From the IMG/VR virus record IMGVR_UViG_2534682255_000012: a DNA stretch of 7,314 bases. The stretch is one strand, 5' to 3'. The position numbers are program-made. The stretch comes from a virus (taxonomy: Duplodnaviria; Heunggongvirae; Uroviricota; Caudoviricetes). Positions 1-3,000 of the stretch are shown here, piece after piece (positions within the stretch are counted from its first letter, which is position 1; every line of letters starts with the position of its first letter).

Positions 1-3000
1 AAGTATCATGTGAAATCCAACTATCCTTCTGAGCCAGCACCTCTCCACCGAAAGTCAGTGCTGGCTGTTTTTTTCCTTAATAAAGCATCTGTAACTGGTT
101 GTTGTTCTGCGGGTTCTGTTCTTCGTTGACATGAGGTTGCCCCGTATTCAGTGTCGCTGATTTGTATTGTCTGAAGTTGTTTTTACGTTAAGTTGATGCA
201 GATCAATTAATACGATACCTGCGTCATAATTAATTATTTGACGTGGTTTGATGGCGTAGATGCACGTTGTGACATGTAGATGATAATTATTATCATTTTG
301 CGGGTCCTTTCCGGCGATCCGACAGGTTACGGGGCGGCGACCTCGCGGGTTTTCGCTATTTATGAAAATTTTCCGGGATCCATGTCCGGTTTCTCTTCAA
401 GTTAACTATATGAAAAATATAAAAACAGGTCTTCTGTGAACCGGACATGAACAAAAAACAGACATGTAAACCGGACATGACCGGTTTTGTTGTGATTGTG
501 AGGTGAGAGTTTTTGCGAGGTGAGGAGTGGCTACGCAGACTGAAGTTGCCAGGCATTTAAGTCTGACCGATCGCCAGCTTCGCAGATTGCAGAAATTGCC
601 GGGTGCCCCGATATCGAATAAGCGAGGGCAACTGGATCTGGATGCCTGGCGCGATTTTTACATATCGTATCTGAGGAGAAGTAAAAACGATGTGCCTGAT
701 GGCGATAGCGAAGACGACTATGAGGAGAAATTGCTTATTGCCAGATGGGAACTGACAGCAGAACAGGCTGTTACACAGCAGTTAAAAAATGAGGTGTCAA
801 AAGGAAAACTGATTGACACCGGGTTCTGTATTTTTGCCCTCAGTAAGCTGGCAATGGCGTTATCCAGTACGCTTGATTCCATCCCTTTATCCATGCAGCG
901 ACAGTTTCCTGATTTAACACCGCGCCATCTTGACCATCTGAAAACCCTTATTGCTAAGGGGGCAAATCAGTGTGCGCGGGCAGGGGATAAATTACCGGAT
1001 TTACTTGATGAATATATCAGAGCAACAACTGAATAATATGATGAGCGCTGTCACAACTGCATTACAGCCCCTGATAAGGGCATTGCCGGTGACGCCAGTT
1101 GAATGGGCTGATCAAAATTATTATCTGCCTAAAGAATCTTCATATGGTGAGGGCGAATGGAAAACGCTGCCATTCCAGATCGCCATCATGAACAGTATGG
1201 GGAATGATCAGATCCGCACTGTTAATCTGATTAAATCTGCCCGTGTTGGCTATACAAAGATGTTGCTGGGGGGGGGGCGGGTATTTTATTGAGCATAAAT
1301 CCCGAAACAGTCTGCTTTTTCAGCCCACGGATTCTGCCGCTGAAGATTTTATGAAGTCTCACGTGGAGGCGACGATTCGGAACGTGCCATGCCTGAAAGA
1401 CCTTTCCCCATGGCTGGGTCGTAAACATCGTGACAATACTCTCACGCTGAAACGCTTTTCATCGGGCGTCGGTTTCTGGTGCCTGGGCGGCGCTGCCGCC
1501 AAAAACTACCGTGAAAAATCCGTTGACGTGGTCTGCTATGACGAACTTTCCTCGTTCGAGCCGGATGTCGAAAAAGAGGGCTCGCCAACCCTGCTGGGGG
1601 ATAAGCGTATTGAGGGGTCGGTGTGGCCAAAATCCATTCGCGGCTCGACGCCTAAAATCAAAGGCACCTGCCAGATCGAAAAAGCCGCTAACGAGTCGGC
1701 GCATTTTATGCGTTTTTATGTGCCCTGCCCGCACTGTGGGGAGGCGCAGTATCTGAAATTTGGCGATGAGTCCACGCCTTTTGGGCTTAAATGGGAGAAG
1801 GACAGCCCTGAAAGTGTTTTCTACCTCTGTGAACATCATGGCTGCGTGATCCATCAGTCTGAACTGGACCAGAGCAACGGGCGGTGGATCTGTGAAAACA
1901 CGGGCATGTGGACCCGTGACGGTCTGACGTTTTTCAGCGCCCGGGGTGATGAAATTCCGCCGCCGCGCTCCATCATGTTCCATATCTGGACGGCGTACAG
2001 TCCGTTCACCACCTGGGTACAGATTGTCTATGACTGGCTGGATGCACTGAAAGATCCCAACGGCCTGAAAACCTTTGTGAACACCACGCTGGGCGAGACC
2101 TGGGAAGAGGCCGTGGGCGAAAAACTCGATCACCAGGTACTGATGGATAAGGTGGTGCGTTACACGGCGGCGGTGCCTGCCCGGGTGGTTTATCTGACGG
2201 CGGGCATTGACTCGCAGCGAAACCGTTTTGAGATGTATGTCTGGGGATGGGCTCCGGGAGAGGAAGCCTTTCTGGTGGATAAAATCATCATTATGGGGCG
2301 TCCTGATGAGGAAGAGACGCTGTTACGTGTGGATGCGGCGATCAACAAAAAATACCGCCATGCGGATGGCACCGAAATGACTATTTCCCGTGTCTGCTGG
2401 GACACCGGGGGGATCGATGGTGAAATTGTTTATCAGAGATCAAAAAAACACGGTGTTTTCCGGGTGCTGCCGGTAAAAGGCGCATCTGTCTATGGCAAGC
2501 CGGTGATCACCATGCCAAAAACCCGCAATCAGCGGGGCGTGTATCTGTGTGAAGTGGGAACGGACACCGCAAAAGAAATTCTCTATGCCCGTATGAAAGC
2601 CGATCCCTCGCCTGCGGATGAAGCCACGTCGTATGCCATCCGTTTTCCTGATGATCCGGAGATTTTTTCGCAGACAGAGGCGCAGCAACTGGTGGCGGAA
2701 GAGCTGGTGGAGAAGTGGGAAAAAGGAAAGATGCGTCTGCTGTGGGATAACAAAAAGCGGCGTAACGAAGCGCTGGACTGCCTGGTGTATGCCTACGCGG
2801 CATTACGTGTGTCCGTGCAACGCTGGCAGCTTGATCTGGCTGTACTGGCAAAATCCCGGGAAGAAGAGACGACCCGGCCAACCCTGAAAGAACTGGCAGC
2901 GAAGCTGTCCGGAGGAGTGAATGGTTACAGTCGCTGAACTGCAGGCGCTGCGTCAGGCGCGCCTTGATTTATTAACCGGTAAACGGGTGGTGTCTGTCCA

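What the first reader, a model, noticed from the sequence alone, without database searches (positions are those of the whole stretch)
376..700. Non-lambda cosB repeats co-occurring with a divergent Nu1 N-terminal DNA-binding domain, suggesting a distinct packaging specificity
cosN and its immediate flanks match lambda, but from about 376 the sequence departs from lambda's cosB and instead carries three copies of AACCGGACATG (two direct at 439-449 and 469-479, one inverted at 381-391) around an AT-rich, possibly IHF-bent spacer. The adjacent small terminase subunit resembles lambda Nu1 only in its C-terminal (gpA-interacting) half, while its N-terminal ~50 aa (MATQTEVARHLSLTDRQLRRLQKL...) differs. 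In lambda and phage 21 the Nu1 N-terminal winged-HTH reads the cosB R sites and sets packaging specificity, so co-variation of repeats and domain predicts that this terminase recognises the AACCGGACATG elements.
Basis: partly seen in the sequence, partly recalled or inferred. Interest (0 to 1): 0.6.

Follow-up and report, generated by a model that had tools for sequence, protein, structure and literature searches.

The report
New lambda-like phage DNA-packaging recognition module
Next to a lambda-identical DNA cutting site, this defective E. coli O157:H7 prophage has its own set of repeated recognition sites plus a matching, divergent DNA-binding domain on the small terminase protein, which together look like a lambda-style DNA-packaging recognition class that I could not find described in the papers I could search.

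Summary
Window 332-376 is 100% identical to lambda bp 1-45, and similarity stops at 376. AACCGGACATG occurs exactly at 381-391(-), 439-449(+) and 469-479(+), with a 1-mismatch copy at 476-486(-).

The layout superimposes on lambda/21 cosB:
- R3-like site at bp 50-60 from the cohesive end
- IHF-like site at bp 71-83
- inverted R2-like site at bp 108-118
- R1-like dyad at bp 138-155
- terS start at bp 196

Comparative evidence supports the interpretation:
- Near-identical TerS C-terminal halves are fused to three DNA-binding-domain types, each with its own cosB repeat.
- Nearly all ~40 relatives sharing this recognition helix carry a TCCGGTT core at the R3 position.
- Arg20 goes with TGTCCGG and Asp/Asn20 with TTTCCGG.
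- R3-to-R2 spacing is exactly 55 bp in 10 complex cosBs.
- In 5,426 E. coli genomes the repeats and the domain co-occur (1,154 versus 1,164 genomes).

Binding and packaging exclusivity are untested. This copy lies in a defective prophage. It is a new member of a known kind, of moderate interest.

The parts
302..308 (+). cosQ heptamer GGGTCCT (packaging termination signal)
   Evidence: Read directly. The same CGGGTCCTTTCC is annotated upstream of cosN in the phage 21 record. A GGGTCCTT(T)CC motif recurs upstream of most related loci.
332..376 (+). cosN and left-end segment identical to lambda bp 1-45 (12-nt cohesive end GGGCGGCGACCT at 332-343). Homology with lambda ends at 376.
   Evidence: blastn gives 100% identity over 45 bp and nothing beyond. 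This cosQ-cosN segment occurs in 4,594 of 5,426 E. coli genomes, against about 1,150 for the cosB part.
381..391 (-). R3-like site, CATGTCCGGTT on the + strand (AACCGGACATG on the - strand), at bp 50-60 from the cohesive end. Proposed primary TerS binding site.
   Evidence: Exact copy. Lambda and 21 R3 occupy bp 50-65 and the lambda contact region is bp 55-63 (PMC9026076). The TCCGGTT core lies at bp 54-60 here, 56-62 in Aeromonas phiARM81ld and 58-64 in the 705R4 type. None of its 11 positions varies among the 14 ungapped E. coli cosB variants.
402..414 (-). I1-like IHF site (reverse complement TTCATATAGTTAA) inside the 72% A+T spacer 392-438
   Evidence: It has 2 mismatches to WATCAANNNNTTR, which by my hand count is the same as lambda I1 scored the same way (lambda had no match at up to 1 mismatch). 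It lies at bp 71-83, against lambda bp 74-86 and 21 I1 at bp 72-86. The homologous position has a perfect consensus in L112, L114 and L116, and 1 mismatch in L121 and L123.
439..449 (+). R2-like site AACCGGACATG, inverted relative to R3, at bp 108-118
   Evidence: Exact copy. Phage 21 R2 is at bp 107-122 and is also inverted. The R3-to-R2 distance is exactly 55 bp in all 10 complex cosBs of this type, although spacer identity falls to 40-48%.
456..466 (+). Degenerate copy AAACAGACATG (2 mismatches), probably not functional
   Evidence: Its positions vary freely among E. coli variants.
469..486 (.). R1-like dyad: an exact AACCGGACATG at 469-479 (+, R2 orientation) overlapping a 1-mismatch CATGACCGGTT at 476-486 (R3 orientation), at bp 138-155
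   Evidence: Lambda and 21 R1 lie at bp 150-165 in the R3 orientation. In the three lineages of this type that have a third site (E. coli, Klebsiella L112, E. kobei L122) the third site is in the R2 orientation.
517..525 (+). Ribosome-binding region GAGGTGAGG ahead of the GTG start
   Evidence: Read directly. The PhiR12_1 record annotates the same GTG start.
527..1036 (+). terS (169 aa), a Nu1-family small terminase subunit. Residues about 63-169 form the oligomerisation and TerL-binding part.
   Evidence: ORF. Pfam Phage_Nu1 scores 67.9 bits (cut-off 30) over residues 49-150. phrog_57 'terminase small subunit' matches residues 1-169. RefSeq names it terminase small subunit.
527..691 (+). N-terminal DNA-binding domain (residues 1-55): helix 4-10, recognition helix 15-22 (DRQLRRLQ, nt 569-592), wing 23-37, helix 38-54
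377..740 (+). Exchangeable specificity module: cosB plus TerS codons 1 to about 63-71
   Evidence: Salmonella L116 (this type) and L118 (Gifsy-like domain) are 91.5% identical up to about 107 bp before terS, unalignable from there, and 87% identical again from codon 63. Window against L120 (N15-type domain): similarity resumes at window 740, codon 71.
1008..2937 (+). terL (gpA homologue), overlapping terS by 29 nt. It is frameshifted in this copy at the G-run 1268-1281.
   Evidence: Split ORFs 951-1292 and 1243-2937. RefSeq marks it 'frameshifted'. One extra base relative to the viable phage PhiR12_1.

Best explanation
Window 377-526 is a tripartite cosB of the lambda kind, and its R elements are the CATGTCCGGTT repeats. 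The proposed mechanism follows lambda and 21.

1. The N-terminal winged helix-turn-helix of the adjacent TerS inserts its recognition helix (residues 15-22, DRQLRRLQ) into the TCCGGTT core of the R3-like site at bp 50-60.
2. IHF, or intrinsic curvature, bends the A+T-rich spacer at 402-414. This brings the inverted R2-like site, 55 bp away, next to R3.
3. A third site, the R1 dyad at 469-486, adds affinity.
4. The bound TerS positions TerL to nick the lambda-identical cosN at 332-343.

cosB plus the first 63-71 or so codons of terS form one exchangeable module that sets which DNA is packaged. It is a recognition class separate from the lambda, 21, Gifsy-like and N15/Monarch classes.

Shown here: the sequence anatomy, the fold, the module boundaries, the co-occurrence and the covariation. 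Inferred: binding, bending and exclusivity.

This particular copy sits in a defective O157:H7 prophage with a broken terL and a truncated capsid gene. It could only act in trans, with terminase and capsids supplied by an intact prophage of the same type.
For: Geometry. R3-like bp 50-60, I1-like 71-83, R2-like 108-118 (inverted), R1-like 138-155 and terS start at bp 196. Phage 21 has R3 50-65, I1 72-86, R2 107-122, R1 150-165 and gene 1 at bp 189.

Module swapping. The same TerS C-terminal half is joined to three domain types. Each domain type has its own repeat, and the DNA breakpoints are sharp.

Deep conservation. Nearly all relatives with helix 2 of the form (S/T)(D/E)R-x-h-R-x-L carry TTCCGGTT(CCGG) 10-40 bp upstream of terS (89 bp in L027). 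Hosts include Pseudomonas, Aeromonas, Enterobacter, Microbulbifer, Azospirillum, Roseomonas and a betaproteobacterium. L022, L025 and L028 have a different helix and no site.

Covariation. Loci with R20 have (C/G)ATGTCCGGTT at all of their 2-3 sites (13 sites). Loci with D/N20 have CATTTCCGGTT or CACTTCCGGTT.

Architecture. R3-to-R2 is exactly 55 bp in 10 of 10 complex cosBs, although spacer identity falls to 40-48%.

Footprint. 2 of 33 repeat positions vary against 24 of 84 elsewhere among E. coli variants, Fisher p=0.007.

Population. cosB occurs in 1,154 genomes at 1,815 places, and the domain in 1,164 genomes at 1,834 places.

Viability. Five plaque-forming phages, PhiR12_1 to PhiR12_5, carry this cosB and TerS at 96% DNA and 99% protein identity.
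Against: No binding, footprinting or packaging data exist for this class in the literature I could search.

The R20/G covariation probably reflects a single evolutionary event, because the R20 proteins cluster together.

The IHF-like site in the window has 2 mismatches to the consensus.

The third exact repeat is in the R2 orientation, unlike R1 of lambda, 21, Gifsy-like and Monarch-like cosBs.

The repeat is a 1-bp-indel cousin of the lambda and 21 R sites, and lambda itself has TTCCGGTT at bp 40-47. Some cross-recognition is therefore possible.

Foldseek E-values for the 58-residue model are not significant.

The local prophage is defective.
Confidence: 0.78

Rival explanations
1. The repeats are merely diverged phage 21-type (or lambda-type) R sites. 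The element would then share an existing packaging specificity, and the new N-terminal domain would read essentially the same DNA.
For: 21 R2 and R1 read TTTCATGTCGG(A/G)CCTT, against (T/G)(T/C)CATGTCCGGTT(T/C) here: the same CATGTC followed by GG, with a 1-bp indel. The lambda core CGTTTCCGTT resembles the CATTTCCGGTT of sister lineages. N15 terminase packages lambda DNA despite a divergent domain (PMC4669245).
Against: The part conserved across this family is TCCGGTT, not CATG, which varies as CATG, CATT, CACT, GATG or GTTT. The site register differs by about 3 bp from 21 R3. On its own the domain aligns with the lambda/21 type only weakly (hhalign probability 31%). Lambda and 21 discriminate more than 1,000-fold over two base pairs (PMC4669245), so a 1-bp insertion in the core should matter.
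Confidence: 0.08
2. The repeats act at the RNA or transcription level, as hairpins forming terminators or attenuators ahead of terS, or they bind a factor other than TerS.
For: The terminator scan flags 373-389 and 468-487, each a stem followed by a T-rich tail: 2 found against 0.5 expected. The Klebsiella R3 region can also pair with an upstream CCGGAAA.
Against: The hairpins follow trivially from the palindromic CCGG in any two sites. The 468-487 dyad is absent in Klebsiella and degraded in E. kobei. A terminator ahead of the first late head gene would be counter-productive. There is no Rfam match. This reading explains neither the fixed distance from cosN, nor the fixed 55-bp R3-to-R2 spacing, nor the linkage to the domain type.
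Confidence: 0.04
3. In this window the element is only a decaying relic. The prophage cannot package anything, so the repeats are preserved by recent descent rather than by selection.
For: terL is frameshifted, the portal gene is flagged as frameshifted and the capsid gene is truncated. Many O157 genomes carry a 100% identical copy.
Against: This concerns only the activity of this copy, not what the element is. The same module is conserved in viable phages. It shows a conservation footprint across 22 E. coli variants. It is maintained across genera. E. coli genomes hold up to 4 copies, so use in trans is possible.
Confidence: 0.1

Closest known systems
Phage lambda cosB (R3-I1-R2-R1) with gpNu1
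   Same: The cosQ heptamer is present, and cosN and bp 1-45 are identical to lambda. R3 sits at bp 50-60. An IHF-like site lies at the I1 position. R2 is inverted. terS starts near bp 190-196 and overlaps terL. The TerS has a winged-helix N-terminal domain plus a Phage_Nu1 C-terminal part.
   Different: The R core is TCCGGTT rather than CGTTTCC. The N-terminal domain is not detected by Pfam Phage_Nu1, and BLAST does not align it with lambda. The TerS C-terminal half is only about 46% identical. The third exact site has the R2 orientation.
Phage 21 cosB with gp1, the classic alternative specificity
   Same: Coordinates of R3, I1, R2 and R1 are almost superimposable. The repeats share CATGTC..GG. 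Arg sits at the helix position aligned with R20.
   Different: There is a 1-bp indel in the core and the register is shifted by about 3 bp. The 21 domain is about 60% identical to lambda's, by my comparison of the aligned sequences printed. This domain is not of that type.
N15 (simple cosB with remote rR2) and Monarch (complex cosB) sharing one TerS specificity (PMC4669245)
   Same: This family shows the same dichotomy. Enteric members, including the window, have complex cosBs with 2-3 sites. Pseudomonas, Aeromonas and 705R4-type members have a single upstream site. In 14 of 17 of these there is also an inverted AACCGGAA inside terS about 200 bp downstream, like rR2.
   Different: N15/Monarch sites are GGTTGTTGT and their domain begins MAVLLNKSDMASS. 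In the single-site relatives the site is a tandem TTCCGGTTCCGG.
PICI Rpp proteins and the EcCICFT073 cos1 cosB (PMC6739421, PMC9026076)
   Different: Rpp lacks a TerL-binding tail and works as a heterodimer with the helper phage's TerS. Here the domain is part of a complete TerS encoded next to terL. A profile search of the PDB returned no terminase or Rpp chains even at E up to 10.
Gifsy-1-type cosB and TerS
   Same: It is another natural class seen in the same recombining pool: the same cosN family and the same TerS C-terminal halves.
   Different: Its repeats are AGATCC(G/T)TTC in the lambda-like orientation pattern, and its domain is close to the lambda/21 type.

Membership tests
Lambda-like cos (cosQ-cosN-cosB) | 12-nt 5' cohesive-end sequence related to lambda's, with conserved flanks | tested here: met
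   Window 332-376 is 100% identical to lambda bp 1-45. Actual cutting was not tested.
Lambda-like cos (cosQ-cosN-cosB) | 7-bp cosQ GGGTCCT upstream of cosN | tested here: met
   GGGTCCT at 302-308. The same element lies upstream of cosN in the phage 21 record.
Complex (tripartite) cosB of the lambda, 21 and Monarch kind | R3 about 50-65 bp from the cohesive end | tested here: met
   The repeat lies at bp 50-60. Relatives have the core at bp 56-62 and 58-64.
Complex (tripartite) cosB of the lambda, 21 and Monarch kind | IHF site I1 between R3 and R2 | tested here: inconclusive
   402-414 has 2 mismatches to WATCAANNNNTTR. By my hand count lambda I1 scores the same, and the position is the same. 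The consensus is perfect in L112, L114 and L116. IHF binding was not tested.
Complex (tripartite) cosB of the lambda, 21 and Monarch kind | R2 inverted relative to R3 | tested here: met
   381-391 (-) against 439-449 (+). The spacing is 55 bp in 10 of 10 relatives.
Complex (tripartite) cosB of the lambda, 21 and Monarch kind | R1 in the same orientation as R3 | tested here: inconclusive
   The exact third copy, 469-479, has the R2 orientation. An overlapping 1-mismatch copy, 476-486, has the R3 orientation. Klebsiella and E. kobei third sites also have the R2 orientation.
Complex (tripartite) cosB of the lambda, 21 and Monarch kind | R sites bound by the cognate TerS | not testable with these tools
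   This needs EMSA, footprinting or genetic packaging assays.
Nu1-family small terminase (Pfam PF07471, phrog_57) | Profile match above the curated threshold | tested here: met
   PF07471 scores 67.9 bits against a cut-off of 30, but only over residues 49-150. phrog_57 gives E 1.7e-55 over residues 1-169.
Nu1-family small terminase (Pfam PF07471, phrog_57) | N-terminal MerR-like winged helix-turn-helix DNA-binding domain | tested here: met
Nu1-family small terminase (Pfam PF07471, phrog_57) | Gene directly upstream of, and overlapping, a gpA-type terL | tested here: met
   terS ends at 1036 and terL starts at 1008. Relatives carry GpA_ATPase and GpA_nuclease domains next door.
Lambda packaging specificity | R elements with a CGTTTCC core and a lambda-type recognition helix (SIRTIQNWQEQ) | tested here: not met
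   There are no CGTTTCC sites in 377-526, and the helix reads TDRQLRRLQKL.
Phage 21 packaging specificity | R elements CATGTCGG(G/A)CC and a 21-type recognition helix (DPRTIERWQSQ) | tested here: not met
   The sites differ by a 1-bp indel plus 3' bases. The domain is not of the 21 type.
N15/Monarch packaging specificity | R elements GGTTGTTGT and the domain MAVLLNKSDMASS... | tested here: not met
   That type does exist fused to the same TerS C-terminal half (P0056, P0069).

The most novel reading that the evidence does not exclude
This is a packaging specificity functionally orthogonal to lambda, 21 and N15. The documented lambda-like specificities number three (PMC4669245), so this would be a fourth. 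It is carried by about 21% of complete E. coli genomes, at up to 4 copies each. Prophages of this class would form a closed cross-packaging group. An intact member could then encapsidate and mobilise defective siblings such as this O157:H7 prophage, together with adjacent virulence or host DNA, while ignoring co-resident lambda-type and 21-type prophages. The Arg20-to-G against Asp/Asn20-to-T switch would split the class further into sub-specificities.
Probability: 0.45. Interest if true: 0.6.

Novelty: new member of a known kind. Interest (0 to 1): 0.42.

Why it matters
Packaging specificity decides which DNA in a cell carrying several prophages ends up in capsids. PMC4669245 states that only three lambda-like specificities (lambda, 21, N15) are documented and that the diversity seen so far looks modest.

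This analysis predicts a further common class. It gives a defined site (TCCGGTT core), a defined recognition helix, defined module boundaries and a natural residue/base covariation that can be tested directly. A Gifsy-like class is visible in the same data.

It bears on three things:
- how the pool of defective lambdoid prophages in O157:H7 might be mobilised in trans
- how satellites or cos plasmids could be targeted to particular helper phages
- the design of orthogonal cosmid or phage-packaging systems

The mechanism itself is the established lambda one, so the finding extends a known kind rather than revealing a new one.

Tried and rejected
1. Motif-first scan of IMG/VR with TTTCCGGTTCCGGT. 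Only 4 of 118 usable hits lie 11-16 bp upstream of a terS of this type. A 14-mer is not diagnostic in a collection that large, so this cannot measure how specific the motif is for the domain.

2. Profile search of PDB sequences with the TerS alignment. Nothing meaningful came back, so fold comparison was needed.

4. hhalign of the N-terminal domains alone. Probability was 31%, aligning only the helix-turn-helix, so this is insufficient on its own.

It was redone with full-length database proteins.

6. Literature searches for this cosB or TerS class, for the PhiR12 phages, and for LPPA33, phiARM81ld and 705R4 packaging. No description was found. Two key Feiss-laboratory papers, PMC4461450 and PMC5006951, are not held, so prior mention there cannot be excluded.

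7. Rfam scan: only a sub-threshold PrrF hit. The RNA-element reading is rejected.

8. The 66-aa antisense ORF 356-556 (the PhiR12_1 record annotates a shorter hypothetical gene there). I treated it as an ORF-calling artefact over cosB and did not pursue it.
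Full report
**Where the window comes from.** The window is 100% identical to a lambdoid prophage found in many E. coli O157:H7 chromosomes. In the RefSeq record the region reads lysis genes, then cos, terS, terL marked 'frameshifted', W, portal marked 'frameshifted', protease/scaffold, decoration protein, a truncated major capsid gene, and tail genes. 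This copy is therefore defective. Five plaque-forming phages isolated on E. coli K-12, C or ECOR13 (PhiR12_1 to PhiR12_5) carry the same cos-terS region at 96% DNA and 99% TerS identity. The module therefore works in live phages.

**Checking the observation.** Lambda bp 1 corresponds to window 332.
- Window 332-376 is 100% identical to lambda bp 1-45, and blastn finds nothing further up to window 1100. The stated break 'at about 376' is exact.
- cosQ (GGGTCCT) is at 302-308.
- AACCGGACATG is exact at 381-391 (-), 439-449 (+) and 469-479 (+). A 1-mismatch copy lies at 476-486 (-) and a 2-mismatch copy at 456-466 (+).
- The spacer 392-438 is 72% A+T.
- TerS runs 527-1036, has a GTG start and is 169 aa. 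Pfam Phage_Nu1 covers only residues 49-150. tblastn aligns lambda, 21, N15, phi80 and Gifsy-1 only from residue 59-73 onward, at 34-47% identity.

**Anatomy relative to known cosBs.** Phage 21's annotated cosB has R3 at bp 50-65, I1 at 72-86, R2 at 107-122 (inverted), R1 at 150-165 and gene 1 at bp 189. The window has a repeat at bp 50-60, an IHF-like sequence at bp 71-83, an inverted repeat at bp 108-118, a third site at bp 138-148 overlapped by a 1-mismatch copy at 145-155, and terS at bp 196. The two layouts superimpose.

The lambda TerS contact region is bp 55-63 (PMC9026076). The conserved TCCGGTT core here is bp 54-60.

The IHF-like site (402-414, reverse complement TTCATATAGTTAA) has 2 mismatches to WATCAANNNNTTR. 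By my hand count lambda I1 scores the same. The homologous position in sister cosBs is a perfect match in L112, L114 and L116, and has 1 mismatch in L121 and L123.

One real difference from other classes concerns the third site. In lambda, 21, Gifsy-like and Monarch-like cosBs, R1 has the R3 orientation. In this class the third exact site has the R2 orientation in E. coli, Klebsiella and E. kobei.

**The N-terminal domain.**
- A model of the domain alone (pLDDT 82.5) gives helix 4-10, helix 15-22, a wing, and helix 38-54.
- Foldseek lists the same families, including 1J9I (the gpNu1 domain, TM 0.65), but without significant E-values.
- At profile level the domain matches phrog_57 'terminase small subunit' (E 4.6e-10) at the same profile positions as the lambda, 21 and N15 domains. 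hhalign of the domains alone gives only 31% probability. A PDB sequence-profile search finds nothing.

The domain is therefore a divergent homologue of the Nu1 winged helix. It is a new sequence subfamily rather than a new fold.

**Do repeats and domain travel together?** Five lines of evidence say yes.

*(a) Recombinants.* The protein search returned TerS proteins whose C-terminal halves, from about DYEEKLLIARW onward, are near-identical but whose N-termini fall into three types:
- this type, beginning MATQxEVAxHL
- an N15/Monarch type, beginning MAVLLNKSDMASS
- a lambda/Gifsy-like type, beginning MKVNKKELADFFG

I fetched their loci. Each type has its own cosB repeat:
- lambda: CGTTTCC
- phage 21: CATGTCGG(G/A)CC
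- Gifsy-like: AGATCC(G/T)TTC
- N15/Monarch: GGTTGTTGT
- this type: TCCGGTT

The DNA breakpoints are sharp. Salmonella L116 and L118 are 91.5% identical through cosN, unalignable across cosB and TerS codons 1-62, and 87% identical from codon 63. Window against L120 resumes at codon 71. cosN types are also shuffled relative to cosB types.

*(b) Deep relatives.* I examined 25 loci from one genome per species, plus phages LPPA33, phiARM81ld, PhAER-1 and vB_EcoM-705R4. All share the domain at 31-63% identity. Nearly all carry TTCCGGTT(CCGG) 10-40 bp upstream of terS. The three with a different helix 2 (L022, L025, L028) carry none. In phiARM81ld the record starts at a lambda-like GGGCGTTAGACC, which I take to be the cohesive end, and the core is then at bp 56-62.

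*(c) Covariation within the class.* TerS proteins with RRLQK (Arg20) have (C/G)ATGTCCGGTT at every site. These are the window, PhiR12_1, Salmonella P0021, Citrobacter P0034 and E. kobei P0036, with 13 sites in all. Those with RDL or RNL have CATTTCCGGTT or CACTTCCGGTT. All sites within one cosB change together. The Arg20 proteins cluster together, so this is probably one evolutionary event.

*(d) Architecture and footprint.* R3-to-R2 spacing is exactly 55 bp in 10 of 10 complex cosBs, although spacer identity drops to 40-48%. Among the 14 ungapped variants of the 22 distinct E. coli cosB sequences, 2 of 33 repeat positions vary against 24 of 84 elsewhere (p=0.007). The degenerate middle copy varies freely. 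One variant has lost exactly one 30-bp repeat unit.

*(e) Population.* In 5,426 complete E. coli genomes the cosB segment occurs in 1,154 genomes at 1,815 places, and the domain-coding segment in 1,164 genomes at 1,834 places. The cosQ-cosN segment occurs in 4,594 genomes.

**Mechanism.** The best explanation is the lambda mechanism with a different recognition code. The TerS winged helix reads TCCGGTT at R3. IHF or intrinsic curvature folds the spacer so that R2, 55 bp away and inverted, is co-bound. A third site adds affinity. TerL is thereby positioned on cosN. R16 (invariant) and R19 (nearly invariant) in the recognition helix are candidates for reading the invariant CCGG. Residue 20 is a candidate for reading the variable base. 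These contact assignments are inference. In the hhalign register R19 and K23 align with lambda residues 20 and 24, which are the known specificity determinants (PMC4669245).

**Caveats.**
- The repeat is a 1-bp-indel cousin of the 21 and lambda R sites.
- Lambda has TTCCGGTT at bp 40-47.
- N15 terminase packages lambda DNA (PMC4669245).

Exclusivity is therefore plausible but not shown.

**Rival readings.**
- It shares the phage 21 or lambda specificity.
- The repeats act as RNA hairpins or terminators.
- This copy is a mere relic.

Each is weaker than the main explanation, for the reasons given in the Rival explanations section.

**Comparison with the known, and novelty.** PMC4669245 lists lambda, 434, phi80, 21, N15, Monarch and Gifsy-1 as the lambda-like cos phages. 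It states that three specificities are documented. PMC6739421 and PMC9026076 add the Rpp-directed cosB of the chromosomal islands. I found no description of the present class. Two relevant papers could not be read.

Like N15 and Monarch, this class has both complex and simple cosBs. The simple ones even carry an inverted AACCGGAA inside terS about 200 bp downstream, in 14 of 17 loci, which recalls N15's rR2.

I classify it as a new member of a known kind. It has the same machinery, fold and layout, with a new recognition pair and a different third-site orientation. Interest is moderate. It adds a widespread, testable class to a field that counts three, and it bears on cross-packaging among the many lambdoid prophages of O157:H7.

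Noticed in passing
window 1008-2937, G-run at 1268-1281: terL (the gpA homologue) is frameshifted. The window reads CTGGGGGGGGGGCGGGTATTT where the viable phage PhiR12_1 reads CTGGGAGTCGCCGGGTATTT, which is one extra base plus several changes to G. RefSeq also marks the gene 'frameshifted', and the same sequence is present in many independent O157:H7 assemblies.
   Followed up: partly
window 6653-6919 and downstream: The major capsid gene stops after about 88 codons and is followed directly by a tail gene (RefSeq: 'incomplete; missing C-terminus'). The portal gene is also flagged as frameshifted in RefSeq, although the window shows an intact 530-aa ORF at 3124-4716. The prophage is defective.
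   Followed up: partly
L126 (lambda) bp 40-47; window 371-378: Lambda itself carries TTCCGGTT just left of its R3, and the point where lambda and the window stop being identical (window 376) falls inside it. I could not tell whether this is a vestige, a coincidence or a weak site for this class of TerS.
   Followed up: no
L003-L018, terS nt 174 or 183 (codon 58 or 61): In 14 of 17 relatives with a single upstream site (Pseudomonas, Aeromonas, E. coli 705R4, E. whittamii, Enterobacter mori, Microbulbifer), an inverted (A/G)AACCGGAA(A/G) lies inside terS, about 195-205 bp downstream of the R3-like site, in an otherwise variable linker. It resembles the remote rR2 site of phage N15. Conservation of the encoded Pro-Glu could be an alternative cause.
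   Followed up: partly
L126, L127, L129, L118, L125, L116, window cosB regions: R sites of all the lambda-like classes look like cousins differing by a 1-bp indel: lambda CGTTTCCGTT, 21 CGTGTCGGTA, this class CATTTCCGGTT or CATGTCCGGTT, Gifsy-like CAGATCCGTTC. Arg at the helix position aligned with R20 (phage 21 has R21) goes with G at the fourth base. Asn or Asp (lambda has N21) goes with T.
   Followed up: partly
L114, L116, L121, L120 against window 332-343: cosN variants are shuffled independently of cosB types. This class of cosB sits next to a lambda-type cohesive end (window), a GGGGACGGCAGACG type (L114), a Gifsy-type GGGCGGCAGCGT (L116) and an N15-type GGGCGGCGTCCG (L121).
   Followed up: no
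L108 (IMG/VR E. coli contig), equivalent of window 440-469: One natural variant lacks exactly 30 bp, which is one repeat unit. This is as expected from unequal crossing-over between the direct R2 and R1 copies, and it leaves a two-site cosB like those of the Salmonella members.
   Followed up: no
L118, L125, L129 (Gifsy-1): Gifsy-1-type prophages have a complete tripartite cosB with AGATCC(G/T)TTC repeats and a TerS domain close to the lambda/21 type. This looks like yet another specificity not among the three that PMC4669245 counts as documented.
   Followed up: no
window 373-389 and 468-487: Two terminator-like hairpins with T-rich tails overlap the repeats. They arise from the palindromic CCGG in the sites, and the 468-487 dyad is not conserved outside E. 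coli.
   Followed up: partly
window 356-556 (- strand): A 66-aa ORF runs antisense across cosB. The PhiR12_1 record annotates a shorter hypothetical gene there. It is probably an ORF-calling artefact.
   Followed up: no
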